This document shows, in pieces, positions 20,115-55,911 of a stretch of DNA of 64,000 nt (within the stretch, counting starts at the first letter, position 1; each line of letters begins with the position of its first letter). The DNA is taken from positions 128,001 through 192,000 of IMG/VR virus record IMGVR_UViG_3300045988_172839; one strand, written 5' to 3'. The DNA is from a virus. The translations under genes and the position numbers were made by a program. Below the pieces are notes generated by a model. It made no database searches. It had not been told where the DNA came from and saw only the letters and a program-made list of their open reading frames with translations.

Positions 20115-20118
20115 ATTG

Positions 20119-27509: not shown

Positions 27510-29372
27510 TTAATCCTCCAACTCAGCTTTCTTACGAGCTTCAAGCTCTTCTTTCGCCAAACGCTCAAGGGCTTTTTGGTCTGCTTGGGCTTTATTTTCT
27601 ACAAGTTTCTTCGTATTGCGCTCCATCTTACGTCCATACTGGTCGTAAATTTCATCCCCTAAAGCATTGATATAAACTGCTTCAAACTTGTGGTTAAAGG
27701 TCTTGCCCCACATCAAGTTCAAAGTCTTAGTTTCCTTAGTATTAAACCAATCGACCATCTCTGCAGTTCCACGTGCAGCAATTTTAGCACGTTCTTGGAG
27801 ACCATACATGTTGCCCGTTCTGTTAATTAAGTTTTGTTCTGGGTCGGCTAACGTAAACTCAGAATCAACCTCAATTTCTTTATCAGACAAGTTTTCTACT
27901 TGGAAGTGAACAGTACCTAAAACCAAATCAGAAACATTGGTAAAGCCTTTGTTCTTATCGTTAAAGGTTTGAACATCTTTAATAGCTTCATCACCCACTA
28001 ACACCTTAGTTACAGTTACTCGAACATCTTGGTAATTACCTGACGTGTCTTGCATTTTTGTAACAAACGGTGTGCCTAAAGTGACTGGATCATCATACTT
28101 TCCTGAACCGATATGAACATTGGTACTTTTCGCATCGCTTTCTTTACTTGCAATGTAAGTGGATCCGACCCACCCATAGGAAACAACTTTATCGAGGTTT
28201 TTCTCACCATTAGCATAAGTGTAAGGACTAGGCTCAACTTTTTTCAGCTCAAGCCATGAAGATACCGCACTATCGTAAGTTGGATTGTCTAACTTATCGA
28301 AAGTATTAGGGTTTTCAACATTTACTTGCTCTGTAGTACCCTTATCTGTTTTCTTGGTTTGTTTTACTTCACGTGCTTTCAAACCAAGGTAAGGGCGCAA
28401 GTTGTTGATATAAGTTGATAACTCTCTCTCTCTGGCAGACCACTCAGAATGAGCCTTACTTTCACTCTTTTCTCCGTAGCTATCCTCAGTTACACCCACA
28501 AAGAAATCTTGTGAAGTGTGCAATTTCTCAGCACTAAAGACTTCTTTATCAAGTGTAGTTGTGAACTCAGCAGTGAGCTTGTTGTCTGAGGATACCGCTC
28601 CTGCAACTTCAGTTGTTTTGTAAGGTTTTGGAATATCAGAACCTTGCATATATGAAGCTACATAAGCGTTTTTGTACTCTAACATATCTGCTAAATTTTG
28701 TGCGATATACTTAGCGTAAGCGTCTACTAAATCGTCTTTGTAAGTATAAGAGTCTTTCTTTAAGTCTTTTGTTAAAGCCTTGATTTTATCATGGTCTACA
28801 TGTTTTACAACCCAACCGACATATTCCCAGTTGGGAGACTTAATCGTAGCGTCAGAACCGTTTAATTCAACGGTTACTGCTTTAGAGACTGCACCTACAA
28901 AGTCAGTGCGTGAGGTGTTGGTGCTTACATAGGTCAAATTCAAATCCCATAAGGAAACACCGTTTGTCTCAGAAGTATCTGAAATCTCAGCCAAAGAAAA
29001 CTGTGATACACCACTTGAAATCTTATCTTGCAAATCCTTCAAAGCATCTTCTTTTGCTTTCTTTTCAATCGCTACCTTTTGGTTATGCTTATATACCAAA
29101 GTCGAACCCGCACCAATGATACCGAGAGTTGCTAGAACACCTAATGTTATCCACAACTTTTTATAGGACTTCTTAGGGGGTTCTTGTTGAGGGTTTTTAA
29201 AAGGTAAACCTCCACCTTGGTTAAAGTTAGAATTAAACCCACCACCTTGGAAACCGCCCTGAGAGGGTTGTTGACCTCCAAAACCACCTTGGGAGTTAGA
29301 ACCAAAGGAGCCGTTCCCTTTAGAGTTCGAACTAGAAGAACCCGAACCAAATAAATCTACTTGATCACTCAT
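27510..29372 (-). CDS. single-pass membrane protein with G/S/Q/N-rich N-terminus and a large extracytoplasmic domain
   Basis: N-terminus GSGSSSSNSKGNGSFGSNSQGGFGGQQPSQGGFQGGGFNSNFNQGG, TM segment LWITLGVLATLGIIGAGSTLVY, then about 520 aa of globular sequence. Confidence 0.75.
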   Translation of the reverse strand: MSDQVDLFGSGSSSSNSKGNGSFGSNSQGGFGGQQPSQGGFQGGGFNSNFNQGGGLPFKNPQQEPPKKSYKKLWITLGVLATLGIIGAGSTLVYKHNQKVAIEKKAKEDALKDLQDKISSGVSQFSLAEISDTSETNGVSLWDLNLTYVSTNTSRTDFVGAVSKAVTVELNGSDATIKSPNWEYVGWVVKHVDHDKIKALTKDLKKDSYTYKDDLVDAYAKYIAQNLADMLEYKNAYVASYMQGSDIPKPYKTTEVAGAVSSDNKLTAEFTTTLDKEVFSAEKLHTSQDFFVGVTEDSYGEKSESKAHSEWSARERELSTYINNLRPYLGLKAREVKQTKKTDKGTTEQVNVENPNTFDKLDNPTYDSAVSSWLELKKVEPSPYTYANGEKNLDKVVSYGWVGSTYIASKESDAKSTNVHIGSGKYDDPVTLGTPFVTKMQDTSGNYQDVRVTVTKVLVGDEAIKDVQTFNDKNKGFTNVSDLVLGTVHFQVENLSDKEIEVDSEFTLADPEQNLINRTGNMYGLQERAKIAARGTAEMVDWFNTKETKTLNLMWGKTFNHKFEAVYINALGDEIYDQYGRKMERNTKKLVENKAQADQKALERLAKEELEARKKAELED

Positions 29373-29390: not shown

Positions 29391-30200
29391 CTAATATCCA
29401 AATGCGTCCATTAGAGCTGATGTATTTACTAGAGGGTCAATTTGAGACTCAGTTGAAGAAACCTCTTCTGAATTAGTAGATACAGCTTGCGTAGGTTCTT
29501 CTACTAATTCAGTTAGTTTCTCATCTTTTTCTACAACCTCATTTTGAGGCTCTGTCGCGCCCTCTGGTGCATTTTCTTGCTCTTGGGGTGTACTTGTATT
29601 CTCAATCGTCTCAACTGCAACTAATGGCTCTGTGGGAGCTTCTGATATAGGTTGTTCAACACCTAAATTATTAGACTTAGTAGATAGAATTTCATGAACC
29701 ATACTTGCTACCAAATCTTTTAAATCCATAGGATTTACAGTTTGACCAACCTCAGAAAGTGTTGATACCCATTGAGGTGTATGTTCTCCCTCACTAGTGT
29801 TATTTGTAGTTGAACCTTTCTCAACTAGTTCCAAACCTAAATCATCTAGCAAATCTAACAAAGCCGATTTAACATCAACCAAAGGCATATCAAGACCACC
29901 AAAGTGCTTAATTTCAGCACTTCGAAGAGTGGATACCCAATCTGCAAAAGGTTCTTCAATCTTTAAGGCTAACCACTTCTCATACAAATTTGCTTGAATG
30001 GTAGACTGCTGCAAGTCATTATAAGCCACAGACTGGTCAGACAAACCAAGCAAGAACTGAGTGGTGGAGACCCTATCTTGAAGCAAAGCATTTAACAACA
30101 ACGAAATATAACTACTTAATTTCTTCTCTGTACGGAGGACTCCAACCAAGTTTGATTGTTCCTCAGTTACACGTACAGACAACGTTTCTCTCAAACTCAA
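29391..30200 (-). CDS. ribbon-helix-helix-like DNA-binding protein with a long acidic tail (ParR-like adaptor candidate)
   Basis: TTG start at 30200 overlaps the upstream TGA (ATTTGA) and follows GGAGG by 7 nt. N-terminus LSVRVTEEQSNLVGVLRTEKKLSSYISLLLNALL fits a beta-strand-helix-helix pattern. Confidence 0.45.
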   Translation of the reverse strand: MSLRETLSVRVTEEQSNLVGVLRTEKKLSSYISLLLNALLQDRVSTTQFLLGLSDQSVAYNDLQQSTIQANLYEKWLALKIEEPFADWVSTLRSAEIKHFGGLDMPLVDVKSALLDLLDDLGLELVEKGSTTNNTSEGEHTPQWVSTLSEVGQTVNPMDLKDLVASMVHEILSTKSNNLGVEQPISEAPTEPLVAVETIENTSTPQEQENAPEGATEPQNEVVEKDEKLTELVEEPTQAVSTNSEEVSSTESQIDPLVNTSALMDAFGY

Positions 30201-31591
30201 ATCGACACCTCCTCTACAAAACCTTCGTGTTGTCGAACCACACGTGACCAAGAACGCTCACTCAATGGACTACCTGAACGCAAGACCTTTGCTTGTTTAT
30301 CCAAACGACTTAGAAACTCAAAGACACCTCGGTTTGTTTCCAAACCCAAGTACAAAACAACTGGACGATTTAGACGAGCTAAATCATCAAACTTACGTTC
30401 CCAATCCACTTCTGACAAAACATTTACTGGAAGTAATGCGTTTGGAGAAGTCAACAAGTCAAGACCGTCAGCTACTCTCAGTTTAATCTCATCATAAGGA
30501 GAATAAAGAGAACGAATGTTTTGCTCTCCTAACAACCACTTAGCCACACGGTTGCGCTTAGTGATACGAACTAAAGTATCCATAATACTCTCTGGAGACA
30601 AGTCAATCACAAGAGTGTCTTTCATGTTTACTAACAGGTATTGGTAAGACGGAACTAAATCTAAACTGGAAGCCGTCACATAAATTTCTACATTCCTTGG
30701 AACACTCAAAGGAGTTGTTGGAACAACTGCACTCTCTTTAAGTTTCGCTTTCAAGTCCTCATTTGCAACCTCTAACTTAGCAAACTCTATCTTCTTGTTA
30801 TCAAAATCAGTCTCAACTAACTGCAAAGTCTCTTTAGTACGATTATGTGAGTTACGCTCATTTTCAAGTTCTGCTTTAGTTAAATCCAAGTCCTCTTTCA
30901 AATTTTGAAGTTGCTCTGAGGATACCCCTAAACCTTGATTTGTGTTAGCAGTTTTCAAATCTCTACGCAAGCGCTCATTATCCGCCCGCAAGAATTGAAC
31001 CTCATCTTCAAGAGTGAGACCAAACCCATCATCTACTGGTAAAGGAGTCTCTTCTTGAATTGGTTCAACCAAAGGGGTTTCTTCTACTTGTGTAAAACCA
31101 CTAGAAGGTTCAACTGTTTCCATTTTGGAAACAACTGGAGTTGCCCCATATTGTGGGGTTAGTGGGGATACCGCTTGAGAATGTGGAGAGTAAGTTGTGT
31201 TCTCCTTATTTAGTTGAGCGTTTTGTGTTGGTGGAGTTGGAGTTGGAGGAGGTGCGACCTCCTCTTTCTTAGGTGGAGCCGTTAAAGACTCCCCTAATTC
31301 GCTCTCCAGCAACAATATCAATTCATCCGCAGTTGTAATCACGTGCGCTCTGTCTGGTCCCACCGTGTCGCGCACTGTAGCATTTGCATCTAATTTAACC
31401 TTTTCATCAGCAGTTAATAAGAACCCTGCCGTGCTAATTTTCTTAGCGTGACTTCTTGCTGATAAAGGTTGAAACTTTGAACCTCCTGAAACAAATCGAA
31501 TATCCGTTCTATGCGCTCTGAGAAGTAAATTCTCAACCTCTGAAATAATCGACTTGCTCAGTTCAAAGTAGTAATAGTCAAAATCTGACAT
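30197..31591 (-). CDS. hypothetical protein with Pro-rich linker and coiled coil
   Basis: APPKKEEVAPPPTPTPPTQ linker; heptad-like LRADNERLRRDLK...LTKAELENERNSHNRTKETLQLVE; downstream of the actin-like gene. Confidence 0.7.
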   Translation of the reverse strand: MSDFDYYYFELSKSIISEVENLLLRAHRTDIRFVSGGSKFQPLSARSHAKKISTAGFLLTADEKVKLDANATVRDTVGPDRAHVITTADELILLLESELGESLTAPPKKEEVAPPPTPTPPTQNAQLNKENTTYSPHSQAVSPLTPQYGATPVVSKMETVEPSSGFTQVEETPLVEPIQEETPLPVDDGFGLTLEDEVQFLRADNERLRRDLKTANTNQGLGVSSEQLQNLKEDLDLTKAELENERNSHNRTKETLQLVETDFDNKKIEFAKLEVANEDLKAKLKESAVVPTTPLSVPRNVEIYVTASSLDLVPSYQYLLVNMKDTLVIDLSPESIMDTLVRITKRNRVAKWLLGEQNIRSLYSPYDEIKLRVADGLDLLTSPNALLPVNVLSEVDWERKFDDLARLNRPVVLYLGLETNRGVFEFLSRLDKQAKVLRSGSPLSERSWSRVVRQHEGFVEEVSI

Positions 31592-31627: not shown

Positions 31628-32851
31628 TTAAGCTTTTTGAGTCTTTTGTGCCAATGAAAAGGCAGTCATCAATCCTAAAATGTTCAAGTAACGTGGGCTT
31701 GTAAGGTCAAACGGGATACCCTCAATCTCTGGTTCTTCAAGGTATTGCAAGTCTACTAAGTCCAATGTTGGGAGTTCGAGTTGCAATTCAGACAAGAGCG
31801 CTTCAGAAATAGTGACTGTTGAACCGTTTGGAACAACACCACCTCCTACAAGTAAAAGACGGTCAAATGAAGAAACCTCTACTTCTGCTCCTCGCAAGTA
31901 AGTAAATACTTCTTGTGCAATATCGGATGCTACCGAATAAATCGCTTGTTCGACATCTTCTCGAACTTTGTGAGTTGTTGAACCATAGCGTACTTCACAC
32001 GTTTTTAGAACATCTTTAAAACTTGCAATCGGAATATCTAAGCCCAAACGTTTATTTACAGAAGCTCTCACCTTACTCAAAATAGTTGAACCCCCAATCT
32101 TAATGGTGTGTTTCAGACCATCAAGTAGTCTTTGACTGGATACCCCAATTAAATCTGTAGTGCCTTCTCCAAAGTCAATAATCAATACATTTCGAGAAGC
32201 TAAGTCTTCGTAGTGTGGGCGAGGGTTCAAATCTCCATAACTCAAGAATACTGAGTAGAATGAAGAATACCCTTCTGGGAAAACTTTAACGGACTTAACG
32301 GTTAAATTAAACTCAGCCCCATCATATAAGTTCTTATAAGTGAAGGTGCGAACTAAGTTCTGTTCAAAAGTTTCACGTGCGGAAACTGCTTGTGCTGGTG
32401 GAACCAAGACTGCAAACTCAAACTCAACTTCTTTCGACAAAGCTTGTTTTGTGCTTGAAGGATACACCATGTTTACCCAATCCAAAACCTTATCCATTAA
32501 GTTAATCAATACAACATAGTTTAGTAAATGATCTGCTTTTGCTAAGTGACTAACTGGTGTTTTTAGTTTCTTAGGTAAGTTTGCAGTCGCTAAGTCACCC
32601 CACATTACCAACTTTTCATGTTTAATTGCTCCTACTTGTAGAGAAACCTCAAGAACATTGGAGTCTAACTTGTTAAAGTCCTCAGACTGAATATAAGAAG
32701 AGTAAGTTTCCTTAGTTGCTAAGTTCTCCACTACAAAGTGGTTATCAAGCAAATAACCGCGAGTGTGTTTGACGATACCCTCTTCCACAATCTGCGCTAC
32801 TGCGCGTGTTTCTGAGTTTCCTAAATCAACCATCAATTTTACTTGTGTCAT
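31628..32851 (-). CDS. actin-like ATPase (ParM/Alp family)
   Basis: MVDLGNSETR (phosphate 1), LIIDFGEGTTDL (phosphate 2) and LLLVGGGVV (adenosine motif), in the right order and spacing for the actin/ParM fold. Confidence 0.75.
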   Translation of the reverse strand: MTQVKLMVDLGNSETRAVAQIVEEGIVKHTRGYLLDNHFVVENLATKETYSSYIQSEDFNKLDSNVLEVSLQVGAIKHEKLVMWGDLATANLPKKLKTPVSHLAKADHLLNYVVLINLMDKVLDWVNMVYPSSTKQALSKEVEFEFAVLVPPAQAVSARETFEQNLVRTFTYKNLYDGAEFNLTVKSVKVFPEGYSSFYSVFLSYGDLNPRPHYEDLASRNVLIIDFGEGTTDLIGVSSQRLLDGLKHTIKIGGSTILSKVRASVNKRLGLDIPIASFKDVLKTCEVRYGSTTHKVREDVEQAIYSVASDIAQEVFTYLRGAEVEVSSFDRLLLVGGGVVPNGSTVTISEALLSELQLELPTLDLVDLQYLEEPEIEGIPFDLTSPRYLNILGLMTAFSLAQKTQKA

Positions 32852-32934: not shown

Positions 32935-34494
32935 CTATTTTCTCAATATCAATTTCAATTCATCACCATATAAATAAGGCACAATCAAAGCGTTTTTAGG
33001 GTTCAATTCCTTGTCGAAGGAGTCCACAAACATGCCGTCCACTTCGTAACCCCTCTTTTTAGCGGTTTCTGTAAAAGTAGAATAAGCTAAACCGCTATAT
33101 GAGATAGAATGGAAGTGAGAACTCAATAAAAACTCGTTTTCATAAGCTAGTTCTCTTAACTTATCAAAATTCGCTAACAAATTAGACATAACATGAATGT
33201 TCAAACCTTGTTGAGTTGCACCTTGTTCGAGGATACCGAGTTCTTTATCAAGTGAAGGGAAGTGAATAGAACCTTGCACCGAAACCAAACCAAATGCTCC
33301 TTTATGACCTTGTGCATCAAAGTTATGATGTTCAAAGAAGTCTCTATACTCCAAATCGGAATGGAAACCACGAACAGAACCTCTAAGCCAGTTACCGTTC
33401 TCAACTGCTGCAATCAAAACAGTTTTCCCTAAATCGCGCAAATACTGGTTCGCAATCAAACCAAGGAAAGAAGTGTACTTAAAGTTGTACTCTTTCGAGT
33501 CTGAAGTCTCTGGTATTTCTGCTACATCAATAGCCAAAATAACCAAGTTTTCAAGCTCAGTAACCTTCAAGTAGTCCTTCATGTGGTTCAAAATACGAGT
33601 CCGAATGGTTTTAGCTGGTAAAGAGTAAAAGAAATCTGTTTGGATACACAATCGGAACAAATACTCGCTCAAATTAAGTTGATAAGAAGCGTTAATGTAA
33701 GGAGACAAACTAAAGTCCACAAACGTTCTATCTAACTTTTCGGGATACCGCTGAAAAGCAGTAGGTACTTCTGCTTGGCACACCTGAGTGAGTTTTCGAA
33801 GTGTTGGCATCTCTAACAAAGGAGTTTCAAATGTAACCTTTAAAATCTCTCTTGCTAAAGAGTTTTCAATATCTCGTACATCAGAAAGCAAAGTGACTCC
33901 GTGCATAGCTACCCACTCTGTCTCAATCTCAACCTCTAAAATCTTAGATAGAGCGTTTAAAACAACACCTGTTCCTGACCAAAATCTTAATTCTTCTGGT
34001 TCAAAATCATACTGATTATTGATTAAAACCGCTTCGCCAATGAGGGATACCCCATCCCCTGTTTCCTCTGTGGTAGACCAATATTGTTGGTTGGGAAACA
34101 AAGGATTACTCTCAACCTCATGGTGGTCTAAGCTAATCACAAAGTTCCCTTGGGAAGTCAACTGCAACATTTCCTCTGCCGAAATAGAAGAGTCCACATT
34201 GATAATGATTTCATTTTGGTGGTACTCTGTAGGGATATAGTAGTCAAATTCACCCCAACTGCGCTCTTTCTTGACGAGTTCTTCTTCGACCATGCCGTGT
34301 CTTCTATCTGTGTTGACACACGAATGGAAAGAATATCCTGCTTTCTGCAACATCTTAGCACCTACGTACCAAGCTAAGAGACCATCAACGTCCGGGTCGC
34401 CTTTAAGGACTATAGGGTAACCACGTGCTAAACCATTTGCCAATACTTGTTTAGCTAAGTCAACACCCTTTAGTGTGTAGTTTTGTAAGTCCAA
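32935..34494 (-). CDS. DHH-family phosphoesterase (RecJ/NrnA-like)
   Basis: KGDPDVDG (motif I/II), SLDHHE (DHH motif III) and AQGHKGAFG (DHHA1 GGH-type motif). Confidence 0.7.
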   Translation of the reverse strand: MDLQNYTLKGVDLAKQVLANGLARGYPIVLKGDPDVDGLLAWYVGAKMLQKAGYSFHSCVNTDRRHGMVEEELVKKERSWGEFDYYIPTEYHQNEIIINVDSSISAEEMLQLTSQGNFVISLDHHEVESNPLFPNQQYWSTTEETGDGVSLIGEAVLINNQYDFEPEELRFWSGTGVVLNALSKILEVEIETEWVAMHGVTLLSDVRDIENSLAREILKVTFETPLLEMPTLRKLTQVCQAEVPTAFQRYPEKLDRTFVDFSLSPYINASYQLNLSEYLFRLCIQTDFFYSLPAKTIRTRILNHMKDYLKVTELENLVILAIDVAEIPETSDSKEYNFKYTSFLGLIANQYLRDLGKTVLIAAVENGNWLRGSVRGFHSDLEYRDFFEHHNFDAQGHKGAFGLVSVQGSIHFPSLDKELGILEQGATQQGLNIHVMSNLLANFDKLRELAYENEFLLSSHFHSISYSGLAYSTFTETAKKRGYEVDGMFVDSFDKELNPKNALIVPYLYGDELKLILRK

Positions 34495-34530: not shown

Positions 34531-34559
34531 ATTATAGCAGATTTTAAAGGGTTTTGCAA
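34531..34559 (-). promoter_or_regulatory. sigma-A-type promoter TTGCAA-17-TATAAT of the DHH/actin-like operon
   Basis: attata at 34531-34536 and ttgcaa at 34554-34559, 17-nt spacer; AAAGGAG RBS downstream. Confidence 0.75.
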
Positions 34560-34563: not shown

Positions 34564-34707
34564 TATGACAACTGTATGACAAGAAAAATAAAGGTAAGAC
34601 AGAAAAGGAAAATGTTAGGACGAAAACAAATTAAGATGAGCCAAAATAAGGAGGAGATGAGACAAATTTAAATTAAAGTAAGACTAAATAAATTAAGTTT
34701 GAGACAA
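34564..34707. repeat. iteron array, 8 copies of TRRGACAA-like octamer, six in exact 21-bp register
   Basis: TATGACAA at 34564 and 34575; TAAGACAG 34595; TAGGACGA 34616; TGAGCCAA 34637; TGAGACAA 34658; TAAGACTA 34679; TGAGACAA 34700. Confidence 0.8.
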
Positions 34708-34710: not shown

Positions 34711-34731
34711 AAAAACCTCACCGAAGTGAGG
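34711..34731 (-). terminator. rho-independent terminator
   Basis: cctcac-cgaa-gtgagg plus a U-run on the minus strand, 3' of gene 34748..35047. A GATACC copy abuts it at 34731-34736. Confidence 0.75.
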
Positions 34732-42783: not shown

Positions 42784-44991
42784 TCAAAGTTTCAAATCGA
42801 AGTCTGTGAACGCTCCAAGTTGTTCTTCGACCTTGGCTTTTTGCATGCGTTCTTTTAAACTCAATTCCTGCTTCAATTTTACACCATTTAGTACCACTCC
42901 GTCAAGTGGAGTCCACGATTTTAACGGGATACCCATTTCTTTCAAGAATGGTGAAGCTTTTCCTCTACGAGTGAGGTAAATCGTAACTTCATCACCACGT
43001 GTTCCTGCTACGAAGTGAACCCTACGTTCTTCTTCATAACTTAGCTCTCCACTCAAGGTATAAGGAAAGACACCATCAGAATCATCAAAAATAATGTTGA
43101 CATTGGCTTCACGACCTTTAAAGCTGAACGGTGTAGCAAAGGTCAAGAGCGAAGTTCCACCTCTTTTTGCTTCACGGATTTTATTGTTGATAAAGTCCAT
43201 GTTGCTAAAGAAGTCTGTAACTGTGTCGCTTTCTTCCGCCAAGGTTGAAATCGTGCCTACTACTTCCGCATTAGAAGGTTCACCCCAATAAAGAACATGA
43301 GCCAAAAGCTCTTTGAAGAGAACCATTTCTCCGGGAAACTCTTCTCCATAGGTCTTTCTCAACTTGTCTACCAAAGTAGCCATAGACTTGAGACCATATT
43401 CTTGCGCAATGAAATCCAAGTAAGCGTAGTTATCGGAGAACAAGATATTTTTGTTCTCTGGAATAGCGTTCATTAGGCGCTCTGCGAGAGTCTTGGCATC
43501 CCAAAGTTTCAGCTCTGGTGCTAAGACTTTCAAGTTGTTCTTAATATCAACTAAACCACGACCACGCACCATTTCAATGAGGTTCCAAACCTTTTGATAC
43601 CGCGCGGTTCTGAAATCCCTTACGTCTCCTAGTAAGTTGAAGTCTCCTTGGCGCTTAACTGCGTAAAGAATAGAAGACGGAGAGTAAGTGAAGTTCACTC
43701 GTGACTGAACTGCAATAGTCTTTCCTTCAGCTAAATACTTATCAATCAACTGCAAAGAAGCGTCAGCCATATCTTTTACAGAGTCAAATTGGTAAGCTTC
43801 AAGGACTCCAACCTCTTTAAAGGAGCGAAGAGAGTGTTCGTAGCGATTTGAGTTCTTCTCAATCGACTTGGTAATGGGTTTCAAAATGTTTGAAGGGCAA
43901 CGGTAAGATACCGAGAGTGGGTACTTAGTTGGTTGGTACTCCTTGTCGAACCACTCCATGACCTCTGGGTTTGACCCACGGAAACCATAAATCGACTGGT
44001 CTGGGTCTCCTACAATAACCACACGTGGACAATTCTCGAAAATAGGTTTCAAGACTTGGTACTGCAACTCAGACATATCTTGCGCTTCGTCCAACATGAA
44101 GTATTCGTAGCGGTATTTATAGAAGTTGACCCAAGCCATTTGAACTGGATCATCTTTCTTCTCTACGACCATGTACTCGTAAACAAGAGACATCAAATCA
44201 TCAAAATCAATGACGTTCATAGAAGTCTTCAAGGCTTGGTAATCTTCAACTACCATAGGAAGTAAATTTCTTGGGAGGTTCAAGCGTTTTGCCGTTTCGG
44301 CTGCTTCACCAAATTGGTACTCCGTAATCGAGCAGTTACGGTAGTTTGAAATAATTGCAGCCAAGTCTCTTTTATCTTGAAGAGAAATGTAGTTACTTCC
44401 TTCTTCTCCCAAATCATGTTTACGGAAGAGACGACCCATAATTGCATTGAAAATACGAGAACCCTCAGAGTCTCCGCCACCAGTGTCCAACATTTGAACA
44501 TAGTCTGATTTTGACTTATCTGTGAGGTTAAACCCACGAAGTCTCAAAAGTTCAAAGAACTCTGACTGTAGTGTACTGAATGTGAGGTCATTTGTGGATA
44601 CCCCTGAGAGACCTAACTTAGCGAAAGTGCGCTCTACATTCTGTTTAATCTCTTCTGCTCCTTTGCTGAGGAAAGTTGTGACCCAAGCGACTTTCTTTCC
44701 TCTCTGAGCTGGAGACAAGCGACCAATCGTTTTATCCTTTGCTAAAATCAATGAAATCGAAGTGGACTTACCTGAACCCGCAGTCGCAAACAACTCTGTG
44801 CGACCTTCTGAGCGAATAATTGGCTCTAGTTCTTCCAAGTTATAACCTTTAGAAGCGACTAGCTCCAAATACTTCTTCATATTTTCTTCGTAAATTTGTT
44901 CCTCAGTAATTTGTTGCTCAGAATTTGCACTAGGTTTTACACTAGCAAAACCTTTGTCGTTACTGAGGTTGTCGAGTGCTGATTTATACAT
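42784..44991 (-). CDS. UvrD/Rep/PcrA-type SF1 DNA helicase
   Basis: ATAGSGKST (Walker A), FMLDEAQDMS (II), VIVGDPDQSIYGFRG (III), VSYRCP (IV) and EERRVHFVAGTRG (VI). Confidence 0.9.
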   Translation of the reverse strand: MYKSALDNLSNDKGFASVKPSANSEQQITEEQIYEENMKKYLELVASKGYNLEELEPIIRSEGRTELFATAGSGKSTSISLILAKDKTIGRLSPAQRGKKVAWVTTFLSKGAEEIKQNVERTFAKLGLSGVSTNDLTFSTLQSEFFELLRLRGFNLTDKSKSDYVQMLDTGGGDSEGSRIFNAIMGRLFRKHDLGEEGSNYISLQDKRDLAAIISNYRNCSITEYQFGEAAETAKRLNLPRNLLPMVVEDYQALKTSMNVIDFDDLMSLVYEYMVVEKKDDPVQMAWVNFYKYRYEYFMLDEAQDMSELQYQVLKPIFENCPRVVIVGDPDQSIYGFRGSNPEVMEWFDKEYQPTKYPLSVSYRCPSNILKPITKSIEKNSNRYEHSLRSFKEVGVLEAYQFDSVKDMADASLQLIDKYLAEGKTIAVQSRVNFTYSPSSILYAVKRQGDFNLLGDVRDFRTARYQKVWNLIEMVRGRGLVDIKNNLKVLAPELKLWDAKTLAERLMNAIPENKNILFSDNYAYLDFIAQEYGLKSMATLVDKLRKTYGEEFPGEMVLFKELLAHVLYWGEPSNAEVVGTISTLAEESDTVTDFFSNMDFINNKIREAKRGGTSLLTFATPFSFKGREANVNIIFDDSDGVFPYTLSGELSYEEERRVHFVAGTRGDEVTIYLTRRGKASPFLKEMGIPLKSWTPLDGVVLNGVKLKQELSLKERMQKAKVEEQLGAFTDFDLKL

Positions 44992-45179
44992 TTTTCTCTT
45001 CTTTCTTCTATTATATAGTGAGACTGAAATCAGTCTAAAATCTTTTCTGAATAATTAAAATCTAATTTGTTATGTTTATACTAAATTGAGAATAAGGTGA
45101 AAAACTGTGAAAAATCCAAAATCCGAGTATTAGTAAGTTACTACCAAGTTAGTGCTCGGAAAAAGGTAAAATTTCATAA

Positions 45180-45960: not shown

Positions 45961-45979
45961 CACTTTCACCTAAGAGAAC

Positions 45980-46594
45980 CTAATTCGAAAAGGCGACATA
46001 ACCAATAAGAGCTAGAAGCGGAACCAAGATAGCAGCTAAAACCCACAAAATAGCAGTGTTTAACTTAGGTTTATCCTCTTGTTTCTCATCGTCTGTTTGA
46101 ACCGGTAAAATATGTGCTGAATGTGGATGATAACCATAAAGAGGTCGGTACAGAAGCGCATTTATAGGAGTATCTGCTGAATAAAACGTTTTTACAGTTT
46201 GCTCAGACGAACCCACAGACGAGGAAGAAGCACCAAAGCTAGGTTTACTATGTGTATCTACTTGCGAACCTAACGAGCGCCAATATGAAACTGGCGTACC
46301 AACGGCACTCGACCTATAAGACCTACCATGACTTGAGTTATGTGAACCAAAATGAGACCCACTTTTTGAACCTTTTGATCCACCGTTATGACTGGTTGAA
46401 CCTTTGGAACTACCATGAGAGCCGCTTTTCGAACTACCACGTGAACTACCGTGTGAACCTCCACGAGCACCACCATGACCTCCACCATGACCACCGTAAC
46501 CTCCGTGACCACCTTTAGCAAGTGCCAAGGTTGGAGCGGATACCGAGAATGCTAGTAAACCAACCACAGCTATTTTTGTAAATTTTCGTAACAC
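45980..46594 (-). CDS. secreted, C-terminally anchored His/Gly/Ser-rich protein
   Basis: Signal-peptide-like MLRKFTKIAVVGLLAFSVSAPTLALA, then GGHGGYGGHGGGHGGARGGSHGSSRGSSKSGSHGSSKGS..., then C-terminal TM ILWVLAAILVPLLALIGYVAF. Confidence 0.65.
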   Translation of the reverse strand: MLRKFTKIAVVGLLAFSVSAPTLALAKGGHGGYGGHGGGHGGARGGSHGSSRGSSKSGSHGSSKGSTSHNGGSKGSKSGSHFGSHNSSHGRSYRSSAVGTPVSYWRSLGSQVDTHSKPSFGASSSSVGSSEQTVKTFYSADTPINALLYRPLYGYHPHSAHILPVQTDDEKQEDKPKLNTAILWVLAAILVPLLALIGYVAFSN

Positions 46595-47036: not shown

Positions 47037-48269
47037 CTATTTAACTTTACAAAAGTCTTGAATTTCATAACCTAACTTTTCTTCCAGTTGCGAGGTGTAA
47101 AAGGATACCCTCTCACGGATTTGCGAAACCTCTACGGAATACTGCTTTTGGTAAAGTTCTTCATCAAATAAAACTCCATAAGACAGTAACAAGAATAGAG
47201 TTGCAACTTCAATCGGAAGAACGGTCGTTTCAAAGTGTAAGTTCTCATTTAAAACTGTAATCGGTACAGAATAAACAGACTCTACTTTAGTAATAAAATA
47301 ATGCTCTGCGTAGACTGAGTTATTGGTTTGAGCGTAGTTGACCCCCAAAGTGTCCCAACCTACCTCAACTCTGCTGACTGTTAGTGAAGGTTCCAAAAAC
47401 TCAATGTAGCTACCATATAATTCTTGAATAGACTCTGGGAGACCTTCAAAATCTTCTAATAAACCCTCTCTGGTCTTATAGACGTTGTAAGTATGGAACT
47501 GAACCTCTGTATCTGTGACCTTTGTAATCTTAGCCAAATGAACCTTGTTAATGAATTTGTTTGTACCTTTGCTACTGCGAACCTCTTCGTTTGCTACATA
47601 GCCTTTTTCATAGAGGAAAACGAGCGAACCAACCTGATACCCTTGCTCTTTAAAGAGCTTTTGTTTCTCAGAAATTGGTAACACCTCTTTGTTCATGTAC
47701 CCATGAAAGCGAGCCATCTCAACATAAAGTTGACTGTTAATCGTGTCTATATCTTTCGCACTCAAATCATAGTCAATCGGTAAATACTCAAAGAGTTTGA
47801 AATAGTAAAGAATACTGGACTCAGCTAACTCTGAGGAAAGACCTTTCACACTTAAATGAAAATCTCCTACAATCACATCAAGATAAATCGCAAACCACAA
47901 GACCACCAAACTATACGAGAGTTGGTAAGGGTAGTTACTAGGTTTCAAATAAGTATAGTTCTCTTCAGTTACCACAAAGGAAGTGCTTGAAACTCTGAAA
48001 TTCTCTACGATTGTTTCAAAGTGAGCCAACAACCTCCGATAATCATAGCTAGGAGGAACTGCTGCTATAGTTTCTTTTAAAGTTAAAAGCTTACGAGCGG
48101 AAGCCATGCTGACATAGGGATACCCATCTAGTTTACTGAGAGCGCTCGGTTCAAATGGAACTGTTGGAATGAACTCTGGAGTAGTTTTGTAAATCTCACT
48201 ATAAGCAATATTATAGAAAGACCAATAAAGAGCCTTATAGGGAGAGTCTATCGTGTATTTATCAACCAT
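47037..48269 (-). CDS. hypothetical protein
   Basis: ORF track, 410 aa. Confidence 0.7.
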   Translation of the reverse strand: MVDKYTIDSPYKALYWSFYNIAYSEIYKTTPEFIPTVPFEPSALSKLDGYPYVSMASARKLLTLKETIAAVPPSYDYRRLLAHFETIVENFRVSSTSFVVTEENYTYLKPSNYPYQLSYSLVVLWFAIYLDVIVGDFHLSVKGLSSELAESSILYYFKLFEYLPIDYDLSAKDIDTINSQLYVEMARFHGYMNKEVLPISEKQKLFKEQGYQVGSLVFLYEKGYVANEEVRSSKGTNKFINKVHLAKITKVTDTEVQFHTYNVYKTREGLLEDFEGLPESIQELYGSYIEFLEPSLTVSRVEVGWDTLGVNYAQTNNSVYAEHYFITKVESVYSVPITVLNENLHFETTVLPIEVATLFLLLSYGVLFDEELYQKQYSVEVSQIRERVSFYTSQLEEKLGYEIQDFCKVK

Positions 48270-48271: not shown

Positions 48272-49033
48272 TTAAACACCCTCAACCCTTTCAAACTCAA
48301 CTTTGTTGTGGTTTGGGAAATTCTTCTTTTGAAGTTCTAAAACCAAATCTGCAGGGAGAGTTTTGTTCAAGGTCAGATACCGGGAGAGTGAACCCCAAGT
48401 CTTAATATCTTCAAGGCTTTCTGAGAGAACCTGCTTTAGCGTTTTCTCTACTTCTAAGACTCTTGTAAGAGCTTCTACAATCTCTTCTTTGGACTTCTCT
48501 TTAATCAAATCTATCTGGTAAAGCTCACTTGTACGCTGATTTAAAAGGTTTGGAGCGACTTGTACTAAAGGGAAATCTGAAATTTCTTCTATAATAGTAG
48601 AAAGTCCATCAGAATTGACTTGTAAATACTCCTCAATCACTTGAAACTGACGGTTTTTCCAAAGACTTAATAAACCTGTCGGAAATCTTGACTCAAGACT
48701 TTCTTCAACTTTTAGACTTGCGTAGTAAACTTGACGAGAAGTCAATCCTGAAAGGTCTACGAGTTGCTTGCAGTTGAGTCCTGATCGATACAATTTCAAA
48801 AGACTAAGTGTGCTTTCTTCATTTGACTTACTCAGATTTAAGTAAGACCCGCTCTTCAAAAAATCAACAAGCGTTTTTGCAAACTGCAAGTCCTCTACTG
48901 TTTGTAAGACCGAACTAGAAGGAATGTGCTTGTTATTCTCTAATCTAGTTTGGAATAAAGTAATATCAGAATAAATCTGATTTAAAGTATTAAATATCGG
49001 TTTCTTTTTACTCATAAAAGTTAAAAACCACAC
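48272..49033 (-). CDS. hypothetical protein with sigma-70 region-4-like HTH
   Basis: LLKLYRSGLNCKQLVDLSGLTSRQVYYASLKV resembles a region-4/LuxR-type HTH. The start codon is uncertain (GTG 49033 or ATG 49015, neither with a good RBS). Confidence 0.5.
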   Translation of the reverse strand: MWFLTFMSKKKPIFNTLNQIYSDITLFQTRLENNKHIPSSSVLQTVEDLQFAKTLVDFLKSGSYLNLSKSNEESTLSLLKLYRSGLNCKQLVDLSGLTSRQVYYASLKVEESLESRFPTGLLSLWKNRQFQVIEEYLQVNSDGLSTIIEEISDFPLVQVAPNLLNQRTSELYQIDLIKEKSKEEIVEALTRVLEVEKTLKQVLSESLEDIKTWGSLSRYLTLNKTLPADLVLELQKKNFPNHNKVEFERVEGV

Positions 49034-49175
49034 AAAAAACTACTATTTTATGATTTACTTTTAAAGCACAAAATAAATCATTCTACTTTTCTGTACTTTA
49101 TCCTCTCTGTAAAATTTTCAGTCTGAAATCTAGCTATATGACTAGAAATTTTCTTTGCTGAATTTCTTAAGGTCT

Positions 49176-49204
49176 ATTATACATTATTTTAAAATAAAAA
49201 TCAA
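49176..49204 (-). promoter_or_regulatory. sigma-A-type promoter TTGATT-17-TATAAT
   Basis: attata at 49176-49181 and aatcaa at 49199-49204. It would give a leader of about 140 nt to gene 48272..49033. Confidence 0.55.
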
Positions 49205-49386
49205 GTAACAAGATGTACAAAATCTAAATCAAAATGAGATAAGTTTGGTATTTTTTGGACTAAAGTAAATAATTTGGATTGAAATAGAGTTTACTATAAA
49301 GAAAAACAAGTTTGAGGATACCGAATAGAGGATTTGGGGAGTTCTTTCAATAGTAAAAAAAAACTGAAATTTAAAATTGACAGTTT

Positions 49387-49428
49387 GTTCTCTGTTCTCT
49401 GTTCTCTGTTCTCTGTTCTCTGTTCTCT
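49387..49428. repeat. heptanucleotide microsatellite (GTTCTCT)x6
   Basis: Six perfect tandem copies. Confidence 0.95.
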
Positions 49429-49862
49429 ACTTTCCAAATTCGACCCAACTCAAAAATCTCAGAACTGAAAACTGAATTAGAAATGCACGTGGACTGAGGA
49501 TACCGCAAGGGTGACTAGAGTTTGCTCTGATTTTCTTGGAATTAGAATGCTCCATGAACCTCTACTAATCTTACTGAAGTTTAAGTTACTTACTTAAATT
49601 AAGGCTTACAAAGAAGGAAGACCGCAAAACAAATCTGAAGCCCAACGGAGGTTGAGCGTTCCTATTAACAAAGTTAAAGCCAAAAGTAAAGACCAAAACT
49701 CAAAGCGAGGATACCACTGAGAGGTAGGTTGAGGAGTTGAAGTTTTAAGTTCAGACCTCAGACATTAAACCTGCACAACCAAGCAAAAAGCCACCAAATC
49801 CTTACGGAATTGGGGCGTTCCCTAACCTTAAAACGAAAAATCAGCCTTAAACTTGAAAAACC

Positions 49863-50239
49863 TATGACACAATTTAAGGAAACCTAAGACAATATATTCT
49901 CAATCTAGGACAGAAATTGAGAGAATTAGGACAAATAAATCTCATTTTATGACAAACTTTAACCGTTTTAGGACAAACAAACCTTAATTTAGGACAAAAA
50001 GGCAAAGATTTATGACAAATTTAAACAAAGTTATGACAAATAAACCTATTTCTACGACAAATAAAACCGTTTTTATGACAAAAAGACAAAGACTTAGGAC
50101 AATTTTAAGTAAAGTTAAGACAAAAATAACTAATCTTAAGACAGATTTTAGTACAATTAGGACAAGTGTATGACAGAATTACCTAATCTTAGGACAAAAA
50201 GTCTAAAATCTATGACAAAAATAAAAAGAGTTACGACAA
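49863..50239. repeat. iteron array, 19 direct copies of TA(T/G/A/C)GACA(A/G) at 21-bp spacing
   Basis: Octamers start at 49863 and at 49885 then every 21 bp to 50158 (14 in register). One is offset by 11 bp at 50169, followed by 50190, 50211 and 50232. Confidence 0.9.
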
Positions 50240-50449
50240 GTCACAACTACTGCTTTTCAGAAGCCTAAATACAAGAAATAAGGGAGAAAAAGACACAAAC
50301 TTCGCAAAAGTCTTGAAAATCTAGATACCGCTGAGAGGGTTTAAGAACTAAATTTAGTTCTCAAAATCAAACCGCAGACATTTTTCCCTAAAATCAAGTT
50401 TAAAGGCTCTCATTTGCCCCGTGTCGCATTTTAAATTGAAGTTGGACAT

Positions 50450-50458
50450 ATTATACCA
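50450..50458 (-). promoter_or_regulatory. possible extended -10 promoter TGgTATAAT without a good -35
   Basis: attata at 50450-50455 plus cca at 50456-58. It would transcribe toward the iteron array. Confidence 0.35.
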
Positions 50459-50509
50459 TAAGAGGTTAAAATCAAATCTGGTGCAATCTGGGGCTTTTTA
50501 GAGAAATAG

Positions 50510-50535
50510 AAAAAGTGAAGACTAAAATCTTCACT
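50510..50535 (-). terminator. rho-independent terminator
   Basis: Stem agtgaaga/tcttcact with a 6-nt loop and a U-run, 3' of gene 50666..50944. Confidence 0.7.
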
Positions 50536-50665
50536 TATCTTCTACGTTTATTAAGGTTATGTTTAGGTTCATCTTCAAAACAGTCTGTGAAATCAACCTC
50601 TTTCGAACGATATAGGAAACCCAAACTAACCAACATAAGGACTGCAAGTAATAACCACAAAGTCT

Positions 50666-50944
50666 TTACTCCCAACCATCATCTGAGTTTGCTGCACTCT
50701 CATAGTCTACTTCAGCTCCGTCTCGGAAGCTCTTCTTAGTGAGGAGAGAGTAAACCCACAAACCAAAGTACCAAATAGTCACAACACCAACTACAAGTCC
50801 GAGTGGAATCGTAGCTACAATCACATCAAGATTGGAAAGACCTGTGAGACGGAGAACGAAAAGTACAACAACTGCAAGCATTGTAAGAATCATTGTCGTC
50901 ATTAAAATCGCTAATGGTAAGTTCCATTTGTTGATAAATTTCAT
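50666..50944 (-). CDS. small membrane protein
   Basis: Two to three hydrophobic segments and an acidic C-terminus. Confidence 0.65.
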   Translation of the reverse strand: MKFINKWNLPLAILMTTMILTMLAVVVLFVLRLTGLSNLDVIVATIPLGLVVGVVTIWYFGLWVYSLLTKKSFRDGAEVDYESAANSDDGWE

Positions 50945-50959: not shown

Positions 50960-51256
50960 TTAAAGCCTACATTTATATTCGCGCCCTGCGAGGTGATACC
51001 GCAATAAGTCTGAACCTTGGGTAACCAGAACCTCTCTAGTTACTAAATCAATAGTCTGACCTAAACCATGTTCTAATAAGAGTTCGTAGGCTTCTTGCAG
51101 AACCTTGAACTCCTCATGAGACCCACCTTCAACATCCGGGTGAACTTCTTTGGAGCGCTTTTTATACGCTTGTTTCAAACTAGTTTGTTCTACGGTTATA
51201 ACACCTTCAAAGCCGAGAATCTTTAAGGCTTTTTTAATACTGCTTAATTCTATCAT
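50960..51256 (-). CDS. J-domain (DnaJ-like) protein
   Basis: LKQAYKKRSKEVHPDVEGGSHEEFKVLQEAYELL contains the HPD tripeptide in a J-domain helix II/III context. Confidence 0.8.
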   Translation of the reverse strand: MIELSSIKKALKILGFEGVITVEQTSLKQAYKKRSKEVHPDVEGGSHEEFKVLQEAYELLLEHGLGQTIDLVTREVLVTQGSDLLRYHLAGREYKCRL

Positions 51257-55879: not shown

Positions 55880-55911
55880 AAATTTATTCCTATTTTCCTT
55901 TCTAAAATATA

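What the first reader, a model, noticed from the sequence alone, without database searches (positions are those of the whole stretch)
49863..50239. Nineteen direct octamer iterons in exact 21-bp (two helical turn) register
The motif TA(T/G/A/C)GACA(A/G) starts at 49863 and at 49885. From 49885 it recurs every 21 bp through 50158, giving 14 copies in perfect register. The phase then shifts by 11 bp at 50169, and copies follow at 50190, 50211 and 50232. A shift of 11 bp is about one helical turn, so every site still faces the same side of the helix.

The 13-bp spacers are A/T-rich and not conserved. The array lies inside a 1.6-kb gene-free region. A second, shorter array with the same octamer and the same 21-bp phasing lies at 34564-34707.

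This is the architecture of a centromere-like partition site or a replication-origin iteron field. Either would be coated by many copies of one DNA-binding protein.
Basis: seen in the sequence. Interest (0 to 1): 0.75.

Follow-up and report, generated by a model that had tools for sequence, protein, structure and literature searches.

The report
Phased octamer array, likely plasmid centromere
Nineteen copies of an 8-base word sit exactly two DNA turns apart in a gene-free stretch, a layout conserved from giant mobile elements in human-microbiome samples to the Bacillus plasmid pXO16; it is most likely the site that one protein coats so that an actin-like motor, or the replication machinery, can handle this very large DNA.

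Summary
TANGACAR occurs 18 times in 49885-50239, 14 of them in unbroken 21-bp register, plus a near copy at 49863. The best run in 5000 shuffles was 2.

In relatives at 65-92% DNA identity the array is syntenic with 20-23 copies. The seven fixed bases are 85% invariant and the spacers 25%. Spacer length and the 11-bp phase shift are kept.

Each near-complete relative has exactly two such arrays. The small one (34564-34707) fills the space between a terminator and a sigma-70 promoter. That promoter drives a five-gene cassette containing a ParM-type actin-like ATPase.

Relatives at 19-38% protein identity keep the gap and gene order. One, and the 350-kb conjugative B. thuringiensis plasmid pXO16, have an exact 21-bp array built on a different word; the others have looser arrays.

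My best reading is a protein-coated, centromere-like DNA site served by the ParM cassette (confidence 0.45). Replication-origin or copy-control iterons are the main rival (0.28).

The binding protein is not identified. There are two fast-evolving candidates.

The element looks more like a pXO16-type giant plasmid than a phage.

The parts
49863..50239 (.). Main array of 19 units. The core reads TANGACAR on the + strand and YTGTCNTA on the coding (-) strand. Spacing is 21 bp, with one 11-bp phase shift at 50158/50169.
   Evidence: conserved in relatives
34564..34707 (.). Small array with the same core. It has 3 exact and 4 near copies on a 21-bp lattice, and an 11-bp pair (34564/34575) 4 nt from the -35 box.
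   Evidence: 8-12 copies in relatives
34531..34559 (-). Sigma-70-type promoter TTGCAA-17-TATAAT, with TG before the -10. It drives the DHH/ParM cassette.
   Evidence: conserved
34716..34731 (-). Intrinsic terminator CCTCAC-TTCG-GTGAGG followed by a T-run. It ends the upstream gene just before the small array.
32935..34494 (-). Cassette gene 1: a DHH-family (RecJ-like) protein of 519 aa.
   Evidence: 34% identity to the pXO16 counterpart
31628..32851 (-). Cassette gene 2: an actin-like ParM/StbA-type ATPase of 407 aa.
30197..31591 (-). Cassette gene 3: a coiled-coil protein of 464 aa. It is homologous to the pXO16 583-aa protein (E 4e-13).
29391..30251 (-). Cassette gene 4: about 269 aa, with the likely start near 30200. 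It has an RHH-like N-terminus by pattern only, an acidic linker and a conserved C-terminal peptide. It is a candidate adaptor.
   Evidence: no family support
27510..29372 (-). Cassette gene 5: a 620-aa protein with one hydrophobic segment read as membrane-spanning. Its C-terminal part is 44% identical to the pXO16 691-aa protein.
50450..50458 (-). Conserved extended -10 element TGGTATAAT (P1). It points into the main array.
   Evidence: read; not listed by the promoter scan
49785..49816 (-). Conserved hairpin GCCCCAAUUCC-GUAA-GGAUUUGGUGGC followed by U5 (T1). It looks like a terminator and lies just after the array.
50513..50536 (-). Intrinsic terminator of the upstream genes.
49176..49204 (-). 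Promoter TTGATT-17-TATAAT of the 253-aa gene, inside a 330-nt highly conserved block.
48272..49033 (-). 253-aa all-alpha protein with an HTH-like segment. It always lies directly downstream of the gap and is a candidate binder.
47037..48269 (-). 410-aa protein of unknown family. It is conserved as far as pXO16 (26% identity).
42784..44991 (-). UvrD/PcrA-like helicase. It is part of the conserved module and is 30% identical to the pXO16 helicase.
50960..51256 (-). J-domain (DnaJ) protein. With the 92-aa protein (50666-50944) it lies upstream of the gap in this window and in relatives L246, L248 and L252.
49386..49428 (.). Heptamer microsatellite (TGTTCTC)x6. Its copy number and sequence vary between relatives.

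Best explanation
**What it is.** The array is a double-stranded DNA site made of 19 asymmetric 8-bp binding sites, all in one orientation. They are spaced two helical turns apart, so every site faces the same side of the helix. One sequence-specific protein would load on all of them and form a long, cooperative nucleoprotein filament.

**What it does.** I read it as the main centromere-like (parC-type) site of a very large, probably low-copy, plasmid-like element.
- The same protein also binds the small array that abuts the -35 box of the promoter for the cassette DHH - ParM-like ATPase - coiled-coil protein - 269-aa protein - membrane protein.
- In this way it sets the expression of its own partition machinery.
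- The actin-like filaments then push or position the DNA by holding the coated main array.
- The most likely adaptor is the fast-evolving 269-aa cassette protein. The 253-aa HTH-like protein next to the main array is the alternative.

**What is shown.**
- The anatomy of both arrays.
- Conservation of the core bases and of the register.
- Exactly two arrays per genome.
- The promoter context of the small array.
- Homology of the cassette to the one on pXO16.

**What is inferred.** Protein binding, the identity of the binder, and the link to the actin-like ATPase.
For: **Two-turn register under selection.**
- There is a run of 14 units at exactly 21 bp, against a longest run of 2 in 5000 shuffles.
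- In eight aligned genomes the seven core positions are invariant in 85% of columns. Spacers are invariant in 25% and the free position in 18%.
- Inside the array, length changes are mostly whole units of 21 or 42 bp.
- The 11-bp shift, about one turn, is kept at the same place.

**Action on DNA rather than RNA.** The small array fills the space between an intrinsic terminator (34731-34716) and the -35 box (34559) of a TTGCAA-17-TATAAT promoter.

**Only two arrays per genome.** Each genome of 200-280 kb has just the main array and the one that heads the ParM cassette.

**ParM identity.** The hits are phrog_691 'partition protein' at 3e-21, Pfam MreB-like_C at 8e-10, and 26% identity (5e-26) to ParM/StbA of pXO16.

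**The cassette is conserved on pXO16.** DHH is 34% identical, the coiled-coil protein matches at E 4e-13, and the membrane protein is 44% identical in its C-terminal part. The 269-aa partner has diverged beyond BLAST detection. That is what co-evolution between an adaptor and a changing word would produce.

**The two loci change word together.**
- In relative L246 both the gap and the DHH promoter region carry GTTTWAAA.
- In pXO16 the profile of its 21-bp array gives one strong hit in the 137-bp region upstream of parM.

**Copy number.** 17-23 sites fit known centromeres. The prophage CGP3 has 24 alpS repeats bound by the adaptor of an actin-like protein (PMC4446434).

**Lifestyle.** pXO16 is a low-copy 350-kb plasmid (PMC6199540). 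An element of that kind needs active partition.
Against: - No protein in the window could be shown to be a ParR-type adaptor. The RHH reading of the 269-aa protein has no Pfam or PDB support.
- Classical parC sites lie directly upstream of parM. Here the large array is about 15 kb from the cassette.
- Instead, the large array keeps a fixed position next to the module 253 aa - 410 aa - 146 aa - UvrD-like helicase in relatives at 19-38% identity and in pXO16. That would suit an origin at least as well.
- The main array lies between a conserved promoter and a conserved terminator-like hairpin, so it may be transcribed. This is unusual for a centromere.
- An 8-bp core with a free 13-bp spacer at two-turn spacing differs from the contiguous 10-11-bp iterons of plasmid R1 parC (from my own knowledge).
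- In pXO16 I found no clear same-word array upstream of the cassette. There is one site, plus a cluster inside a gene.
Confidence: 0.45

Rival explanations
1. The array is a field of replication-origin or copy-control iterons. An initiator encoded next to it, the 253-aa or the 410-aa protein, binds the phased sites. It melts nearby A/T-rich DNA and recruits the adjacent UvrD/PcrA-like helicase. The small array would then be a second control site, used for titration, handcuffing or regulation of replication and segregation genes.
For: - Spacing of about two turns is typical of plasmid iterons (from my own knowledge).
- The order gap - ~250 aa - ~410 aa - ~140 aa - UvrD-like helicase is kept in relatives at 19-38% identity and in pXO16.
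- A J-domain protein lies just upstream of the gap in this window and in relatives L246, L248 and L252. DnaK/DnaJ chaperones activate iteron-binding Rep proteins of P1 and F (from my own knowledge).
- An A/T-rich stretch (74-82% A+T) lies at 49150-49300.
- A promoter reads into the array, as in origins that are activated by transcription.
- RNase H, a 5'-3' exonuclease and a RecJ-like gene are in the same window.
- L110, an unrelated viral contig, shows the textbook layout: six 21-bp repeats upstream of a Rep3-like initiator and a DnaC-like loader.
- Two separated clusters of octamer iterons are known from phage P4 (ori and crr) (from my own knowledge).
Against: - No neighbouring protein matches any Rep, DnaA, primase or relaxase family.
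- The model of the 253-aa protein has no significant structural match.
- No DnaA box with one mismatch or fewer lies in the gap.
- Gene orientation and cumulative GC skew do not change across the array. This argues against a bidirectional origin, although not against a unidirectional one.
- 17-23 sites is many for an origin.
- The second array heads a ParM operon, not a replication gene.
Confidence: 0.28
2. The array is a regulatory sink or silencer. A transcription factor whose real job is to control the cassette promoter, and the promoters in the gap, is buffered or blocked by a large array of decoy sites. The array would have no direct part in moving or copying the DNA.
For: - The small array abuts a -35 box.
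- The main array lies between a promoter and a terminator and could act as a roadblock.
- Both arrays share one orientation with transcription.
Against: - Strict two-turn spacing and 17-23 copies have been kept through deep divergence, while the word itself changed. That is a costly design for titration alone.
- Only two loci per 250 kb carry the word.
Confidence: 0.1
3. The array is a loading site for DNA transfer. It would resemble the clt locus of Streptomyces plasmids or an oriT. A translocase or relaxosome protein would recognise the direct 8-bp repeats. The strand-polar word GGTATC, found all over the element, might then orient translocation.
For: - clt loci consist of direct 8-bp repeats bound by the FtsK-like TraB (PMC4447253).
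- pXO16 is conjugative, and its oriT and relaxase are still unknown (PMC9673590).
- A UvrD-like helicase is part of the module.
- GGTATC lies 112:4 on the coding strand in all three reading phases. pXO16 has its own polar word, AGGGGTA, at 85:0.
Against: - No transfer gene or FtsK-like gene is in the window.
- The second array sits at the ParM cassette promoter, which a transfer site would not explain.
- Nothing links the polar word to the octamer.
Confidence: 0.07
4. The array acts as RNA. A non-coding transcript of about 650 nt would run from P1 to the hairpin T1 and carry 19 UUGUCNUA motifs. It would sponge or assemble an RNA-binding protein.
For: - A conserved extended -10 element lies about 200 bp upstream, and a conserved hairpin with U5 lies just downstream.
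- All motifs are in the sense orientation.
Against: - The small array lies between a terminator and a promoter, so it should not be transcribed.
- Exact spacing of 21 nt, and shifts of 11 nt, match the pitch of the DNA helix.
- No Rfam family matches, even at relaxed thresholds.
- The spacers carry no conserved structure.
Confidence: 0.07

Closest known systems
ParMRC (type II) partition loci, such as plasmid R1 parC-parM-parR and pSK41
   Same: - An actin-like ATPase is present.
- Direct repeats lie at the operon promoter.
- The expected logic is the same: an adaptor coats the repeats, represses its own operon and couples the DNA to filaments.
   Different: - The cassette has five genes and starts with a DHH protein.
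- The adaptor is not identified.
- The sites have an 8-bp core at two-turn spacing with free spacers, not contiguous 10-11-bp iterons.
- The large array is 15 kb away from the operon.

The details of R1 and pSK41 are from my own knowledge.
AlpACS of the Corynebacterium prophage CGP3 (PMC4446434)
   Same: - It is an actin-like protein on a mobile element.
- Its adaptor binds 24 short repeats (alpS, TTAAnnG) in the operon promoter region.
- It is needed for efficient replication of the element.
   Different: - I know of no report of strict helical phasing in alpS.
- There is one locus, not two.
- No homology between the two systems was shown here.
Iteron origins and control arrays (P1 ori/incA, F, RK2, R6K; phage P4 ori/crr)
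   Same: - Direct repeats have a period of about 21-22 bp.
- Two clusters of the same repeat can lie kilobases apart.
- Chaperones are involved.
   Different: - No Rep-type initiator gene is detectable here.
- Only 8 of the 21 bp are specified.
- There are 17-23 copies.
- There are no DnaA boxes.

The plasmid details are from my own knowledge.
TubZRC of pBtoxis (tubC iterons; PMC6009700, PMC6199540)
   Same: - It is a cytomotive-filament partition system on a large B. thuringiensis plasmid.
- Its iterons were first read as replication elements.
   Different: - The motor is tubulin-like, not actin-like.
- The proteins are unrelated.
- According to the title of PMC6009700 (paper not read), the TubR-centromere complex forms a double-ring segrosome.
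clt loci of Streptomyces conjugative plasmids (PMC4447253)
   Same: Direct 8-bp repeats form the cis site recognised by one protein on a conjugative element.
   Different: - clt loci have few repeats.
- The binder is an FtsK-like translocase, which was not seen in this window.

Membership tests
Type II (ParMRC-like) partition locus | An actin-like ParM/Alp ATPase gene | tested here: met
   - phrog_691 'partition protein', 3e-21.
- Pfam MreB-like_C, 39.8 bits against a cut-off of 27.8.
- 26% identity over 81% of its length to ParM/StbA of pXO16, 5e-26.
- The NCBIfam ParM model scores far below its curated cut-off.
Type II (ParMRC-like) partition locus | A centromere of direct repeats at or overlapping the operon promoter | tested here: met
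   The small array ends 4 nt from the -35 box of TTGCAA-17-TATAAT. Relatives carry 8-12 copies there.
Type II (ParMRC-like) partition locus | An adaptor (ParR-type, RHH) encoded in the operon that binds the repeats | tested here: inconclusive
   The 269-aa protein has an RHH-like pattern, an acidic linker and a conserved C-terminal peptide. No Pfam or PDB match was found, even at E = 10. Binding cannot be tested with these tools.
Type II (ParMRC-like) partition locus | The locus stabilises the replicon | not testable with these tools
   This needs plasmid-loss assays. pXO16 in B. thuringiensis is the tractable relative.
Iteron-type replication origin | Tandem direct repeats at helical phasing | tested here: met
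   14 units lie at exactly 21 bp.
Iteron-type replication origin | An adjacent gene for a recognisable initiator (Rep_3, RepA/WH, DnaA-like or similar) | tested here: not met
   - The 253-, 410- and 146-aa proteins have no Pfam, PHROG, NCBIfam or PDB match.
- The fold search gave no hit with E below 0.1.
Iteron-type replication origin | DnaA boxes and an A/T-rich unwinding element next to the repeats | tested here: inconclusive
   No DnaA box with one mismatch or fewer lies in 49034-50665. An A/T-rich stretch lies at 49150-49300, but it also holds the promoter of the 253-aa gene.
Iteron-type replication origin | A change of GC skew or gene orientation at the site (for a bidirectional origin) | tested here: not met
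   All ORFs are on the - strand on both sides. Cumulative GC skew is monotonic across the site.
Streptomyces-type clt transfer locus | Direct 8-bp repeats recognised by an FtsK-like translocase of the same element | tested here: inconclusive
   The repeats are present. No FtsK/TraB-like gene lies in the 64-kb window, and the rest of the element was not available.
Type III toxin-antitoxin (ToxI-like RNA repeats) | Near-identical tandem RNA repeats between a promoter and a terminator, followed directly by the toxin gene | tested here: not met
   Only 7-8 of the 21 nt are conserved, and the spacers are free. The next gene lies about 750 nt further on and has its own promoter.
CRISPR array | Repeats of 23-47 bp with unique spacers of similar length | tested here: not met
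   The repeat core is 8 bp and the spacers are 13 bp.

The most novel reading that the evidence does not exclude
The array would be the missing cis-acting 'handle' of a whole family of giant Firmicute mobile elements. The family would include pXO16 and possibly the oral Inocles. No origin, centromere or oriT is known for any of them.

In this reading the array works together with the strand-polar words that cover the element: GGTATC here at 112:4, and AGGGGTA in pXO16 at 85:0. A protein filament on the array would load a directional DNA motor. The polar words would then steer that motor during segregation or double-strand transfer.
Probability: 0.1. Interest if true: 0.8.

Novelty: new variant of a known kind. 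Interest (0 to 1): 0.55.

Why it matters
- **A handle on pXO16.** The reviews read here describe very few relevant database homologies among the CDSs of pXO16, and say that its relaxase and oriT are still unidentified (PMC9673590; PMC6199540). The oral elements of this size are known only from metagenomes.
- **A concrete place to start.** The work gives a conserved cis site, a conserved five-gene ParM cassette wired to it, and a conserved neighbouring module of unknown proteins with a helicase.
- **It can be tested.** pXO16 can be grown and manipulated, so the prediction can be tested directly.
- **A natural experiment.** One family has kept a 21-bp lattice while changing the recognised word at least twice. 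That makes it a good system for studying how a DNA-binding protein and its sites evolve together.
- **A practical use.** The array, together with the strand-polar words, is also a marker for finding such elements. IMG/VR currently files these contigs as viral.

Tried and rejected
- **Known RNA or tRNA.** Nothing was found with Rfam at gathering or relaxed thresholds, or with ARAGORN.
- **Close DNA relatives among isolated phages.** None were found. The helicase reaches only 23-28% identity in that collection.
- **Species-representative bacterial genomes.** There is no relative of the 410-aa protein.
- **Generic array scan.** Searching the viral collection for GACAA with 16-nt gaps gave mostly coding repeats. 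It was useful only for L085, L106, L110 and L116.
- **Contig ends as genome termini.** Rejected. The contigs end inside a variable heptamer microsatellite, so these are assembly breaks.
- **The 31-aa ORF at 50354-50449.** Rejected. An indel between relatives breaks its frame.
- **Structure of the 253-aa protein.**
  - A shallow alignment gave pLDDT 40.
  - A deeper alignment gave pLDDT 83.
  - Neither PDB nor BFVD gave a significant match.
- **RHH test of the 269-aa protein.** No support came from a PDB profile search or from Pfam.
- **The 410-aa family.** Neither a PDB profile search nor Pfam gave a match.
- **DnaA boxes.** None lie in the gap.
- **Is the window an Inocle?** I could not check this. 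The marker gene InoC is not in the window.
Full report
**1. The observation**

The + strand of 49863-50239 carries the word TANGACAR at 49885 and then every 21 bp through 50158, which is 14 copies. Further copies follow at 50169 (a shift of 11 bp), 50190, 50211 and 50232. The copy at 49863 is TATGACAC and lies 22 bp before the next one. The count is therefore 18 exact copies and 1 near copy.

Chance does not explain this.
- Tandem Repeats Finder reports periods of 21, 42, 63 and 84 bp.
- In 5000 shuffles of the 1632-bp gap the longest 21-bp run was 2 and the largest count was 4. The observed values are 14 and 18.
- Outside the two arrays the word is not enriched in the window.

Six of the eight positions are invariant and position 3 is free. 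The spacers are A/T-rich next to the core and otherwise unconserved.

All ORFs of 80 aa or more around the array lie on the - strand. The gap 49034-50665 has none. On the coding strand the word reads YTGTCNTA.

**2. Conservation**

A protein next to the gap retrieved 15 contigs from IMG/VR, eleven of them 198-284 kb long. Judged from their IMG sample numbers, most come from human-microbiome samples. Most aligned stretches are 80-92% identical to the window in DNA, and the least similar contig falls to about 65%. L085 and L116 are about 70% identical.

Every contig with enough flanking sequence has the array at the same place. The counts are 20-23 units in the closer relatives and 14 in L085. 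The 11-bp shift, or a 12+9+11 variant of it, lies three or four units from the same end.

In an alignment of the whole gap from eight genomes:
- the seven fixed core positions are invariant in 85% of columns;
- the spacers are invariant in 25%;
- the free position is invariant in 18%;
- inside the array, length changes are mostly whole units of 21 or 42 bp.

So the core bases and the spacing are under selection, and the spacer sequence is not.

**3. The second array**

In the window it is degenerate, with exact copies at 34564, 34575 and 34595 and near copies at 34616, 34658, 34679 and 34700. Relatives have 8-12 good copies there.

It exactly fills the space between two signals on the - strand:
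- the intrinsic terminator of the upstream gene (34731-34716);
- the -35 box of a promoter, TTGCAA-17-TATAAT (34559-34531).

An 11-bp pair of sites ends 4 nt from the -35 box. This array should not be transcribed, so the word acts on DNA.

A collection-wide scan for three in-phase copies found exactly two places in each near-complete relative. They are the main array and this one.

**4. What the small array controls**

The promoter drives five genes:
- a DHH (RecJ-like) protein;
- a 407-aa actin-like ATPase;
- a 464-aa coiled-coil protein;
- a protein of about 269 aa;
- a 620-aa protein with one hydrophobic segment that I read as membrane-spanning.

The ATPase matches phrog_691 'partition protein' (3e-21) and Pfam MreB-like_C. 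It also matches solved ParM structures weakly.

Its best annotated relative is the ParM/StbA protein of ten B. thuringiensis plasmids of about 350 kb (26% identity, 5e-26). A review identifies the 349.6-kb plasmid as pXO16 (PMC6199540).

The whole cassette is syntenic there:
- DHH is 34% identical;
- the coiled-coil protein matches at E 4e-13;
- the last protein is 44% identical in its C-terminal part.

Only the 269-aa partner is beyond BLAST detection. It has the same length and position in both elements. In both, by eye, it shows an RHH-like N-terminal pattern, an acidic linker and a short C-terminal peptide. That reading has no Pfam or PDB support.

**5. What surrounds the main array**

Reading along the coding strand, the gap contains:
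1. a terminator (50536-50513);
2. a very conserved block with an extended -10 element, TGGTATAAT (50458-50450), pointing towards the array;
3. about 200 nt of conserved non-coding sequence;
4. the array;
5. a conserved hairpin with U5 (49816-49785);
6. variable heptamer microsatellites;
7. one to three copies of a unit that carries a GGAACGCCCAAC..GTTGGGC hairpin;
8. the promoter and long leader of the 253-aa gene.

Downstream come the 253-aa, 410-aa and 146-aa proteins and a UvrD/PcrA-like helicase. Upstream lie a J-domain protein and a 92-aa protein.

The 253-aa protein is all-alpha and has an HTH-like segment. Family members give weak HTH hits. A confident model (pLDDT 83) has no significant structural match. 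The 410-aa family matches nothing.

**6. Deep relatives**

Homologues of the 253-aa protein at 19-38% identity keep the gene order ~250 aa - ~400 aa - ~140 aa - helicase. Three of them (L241, L246, L248) keep a gap of 1.5-2.1 kb upstream. L244 has only a short gap before a 97-aa gene and shows no clear periodicity. A J-domain gene lies upstream of the gap in L246, L248 and the close relative L252.

Most of the gaps carry arrays built on other words:

| Element | Word | Layout |
|---|---|---|
| L242 | TGTAATA | at least 12 copies at exactly 21 bp |
| L241 | TTGTAY | spacing of 21-23 bp |
| L246 | GTTTWAAA | lattice of about 20 bp |
| pXO16 | ..CTGAAAGTT.. | 17 units in exact 21-bp register |

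In L246, in-phase copies of the same word also lie upstream of its DHH promoter.

pXO16 has the same layout. A 1.7-kb gap precedes genes for a 205-aa protein, a 407-aa protein (26% identical to the 410-aa protein), a 121-aa protein and a helicase (30% identical, 8e-74).

A profile of the pXO16 array gives one strong hit in the 137-bp region upstream of its parM. It also gives an in-phase cluster inside the last cassette gene.

The two-turn lattice is therefore old, and the word has changed together with its reader.

**7. Interpretation**

Four facts point to a DNA site coated by one protein on one face of the helix:
- exact two-turn phasing;
- shifts of one turn;
- free spacers of fixed length;
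- an untranscribed second copy.

Three facts favour a centromere-like role with self-regulation:
- only two loci per genome carry the word;
- one of them heads a ParM cassette in at least two lineages, with a single profile hit in a third;
- pXO16 is a low-copy plasmid.

This would work like parC/ParR/ParM, or like alpS/AlpA/AlpC of prophage CGP3, which has 24 repeats (PMC4446434). I give this 0.45.

The fixed partnership of the large array with the 253/410/helicase module and the J-domain gene keeps an origin or copy-control role alive, at 0.28. Three things count against it. No initiator family is recognisable. There is no DnaA box. Neither GC skew nor gene orientation changes at the site.

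The gap is complex enough to hold both an origin and a centromere.

The lesser rivals are a regulatory sink, a clt-like transfer site (PMC4447253) and an RNA function.

**8. What kind of element this is**

IMG/VR files the relatives as viral. However, the window has no virion gene. It carries several DNA methyltransferases, DHFR, PnuC, Fic, RNase H and a 5'-3' exonuclease.

Its only annotated relative for three separate modules is the conjugative plasmid pXO16, whose genes in the regions examined also lie on one strand.

Oral giant plasmid-like elements called Inocles (245-368 kb, Streptococcus) have been described (PMC12340149). I could not test whether the window belongs to that family.

**9. 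Novelty**

Phased repeats as centromeres or iterons are well known. I searched the paper library for jumbo-phage partition and iterons, for the pXO16 origin or minireplicon, and for Inocles. Among the results listed and the papers I opened, I found no description of the following:
- this family of arrays;
- its two-locus wiring to a five-gene ParM cassette;
- its conservation from oral elements to pXO16.

I rate it a new variant of a known kind, with moderate interest. It gains interest because it can be tested in pXO16.

Noticed in passing
whole window, for example 427, 3838, 34731, 49317, 49499, 49710, 50324: The hexamer GATACC occurs 112 times on the + strand and 4 times on the - strand. 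On the coding strand it reads GGTATC.
- It is the most strand-skewed hexamer in the window.
- It falls evenly in all three codon phases (30/31/32), so it is not a codon effect.
- It is about 8-fold over my rough base-composition estimate of about 14.
- The bias is kept in close and deep relatives.
- Sampled pXO16 regions (72 kb) have their own polar word, AGGGGTA, at 85:0.
- Four copies in the gap lie at invariant alignment columns.

It could be a Chi-like, KOPS-like, priming or transfer signal. This was not tested.
   Followed up: partly
window 45000-45980: A second gene-free kilobase holds six units of about 135 bp. Each unit shares GGGTATCTCAT followed by AATTTT on the coding strand.
   Followed up: partly
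window 55918-56000: A 19-bp unit, CCCAAAGAAATTTGGGATA, is repeated 4.4 times at 100% identity inside ORF 55415-56062. Each unit contains the polar word.
   Followed up: no
window 17889-20174: A C-5 cytosine methyltransferase is split between two ORFs. The first (18951-20174) also carries an intein-like Hint domain; the second is 17889-18845.
   Followed up: no
window 49386-49428 and 49751-49764; L008, L011, L014 and L106 ends: Heptamer microsatellites flank the array: (GGTCTGA/GGTTTGA)n and (AGCAGAA/AGAACAG)n. Their copy number, and even their sequence, vary between close relatives. Several short-read contigs end inside them.
   Followed up: partly
L250 5887-6264 (NZ_CP045024.1, about 219886-220263): The conjugative B. 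thuringiensis plasmid pXO16 has a 17-unit array in exact 21-bp register. It lies in a 1.7-kb gap at the syntenic position. pXO16 also has the same DHH-ParM cassette about 20 kb away.
   Followed up: yes
L110 1678-1800: An unrelated 108-kb viral contig carries six 21-bp repeats, TAAGACAAAAGGGGAG.., directly upstream of a Rep3-like initiator and a DnaC/IstB-like loader. This is a textbook iteron origin, and its core happens to be the same.
   Followed up: partly
L010 1-530, joining the window at about 49065: One related contig joins unrelated DNA, which I read as encoding a secreted PepSY-like protein, right at the promoter region of the 253-aa gene. It may be a recombinant or a misassembly.
   Followed up: no
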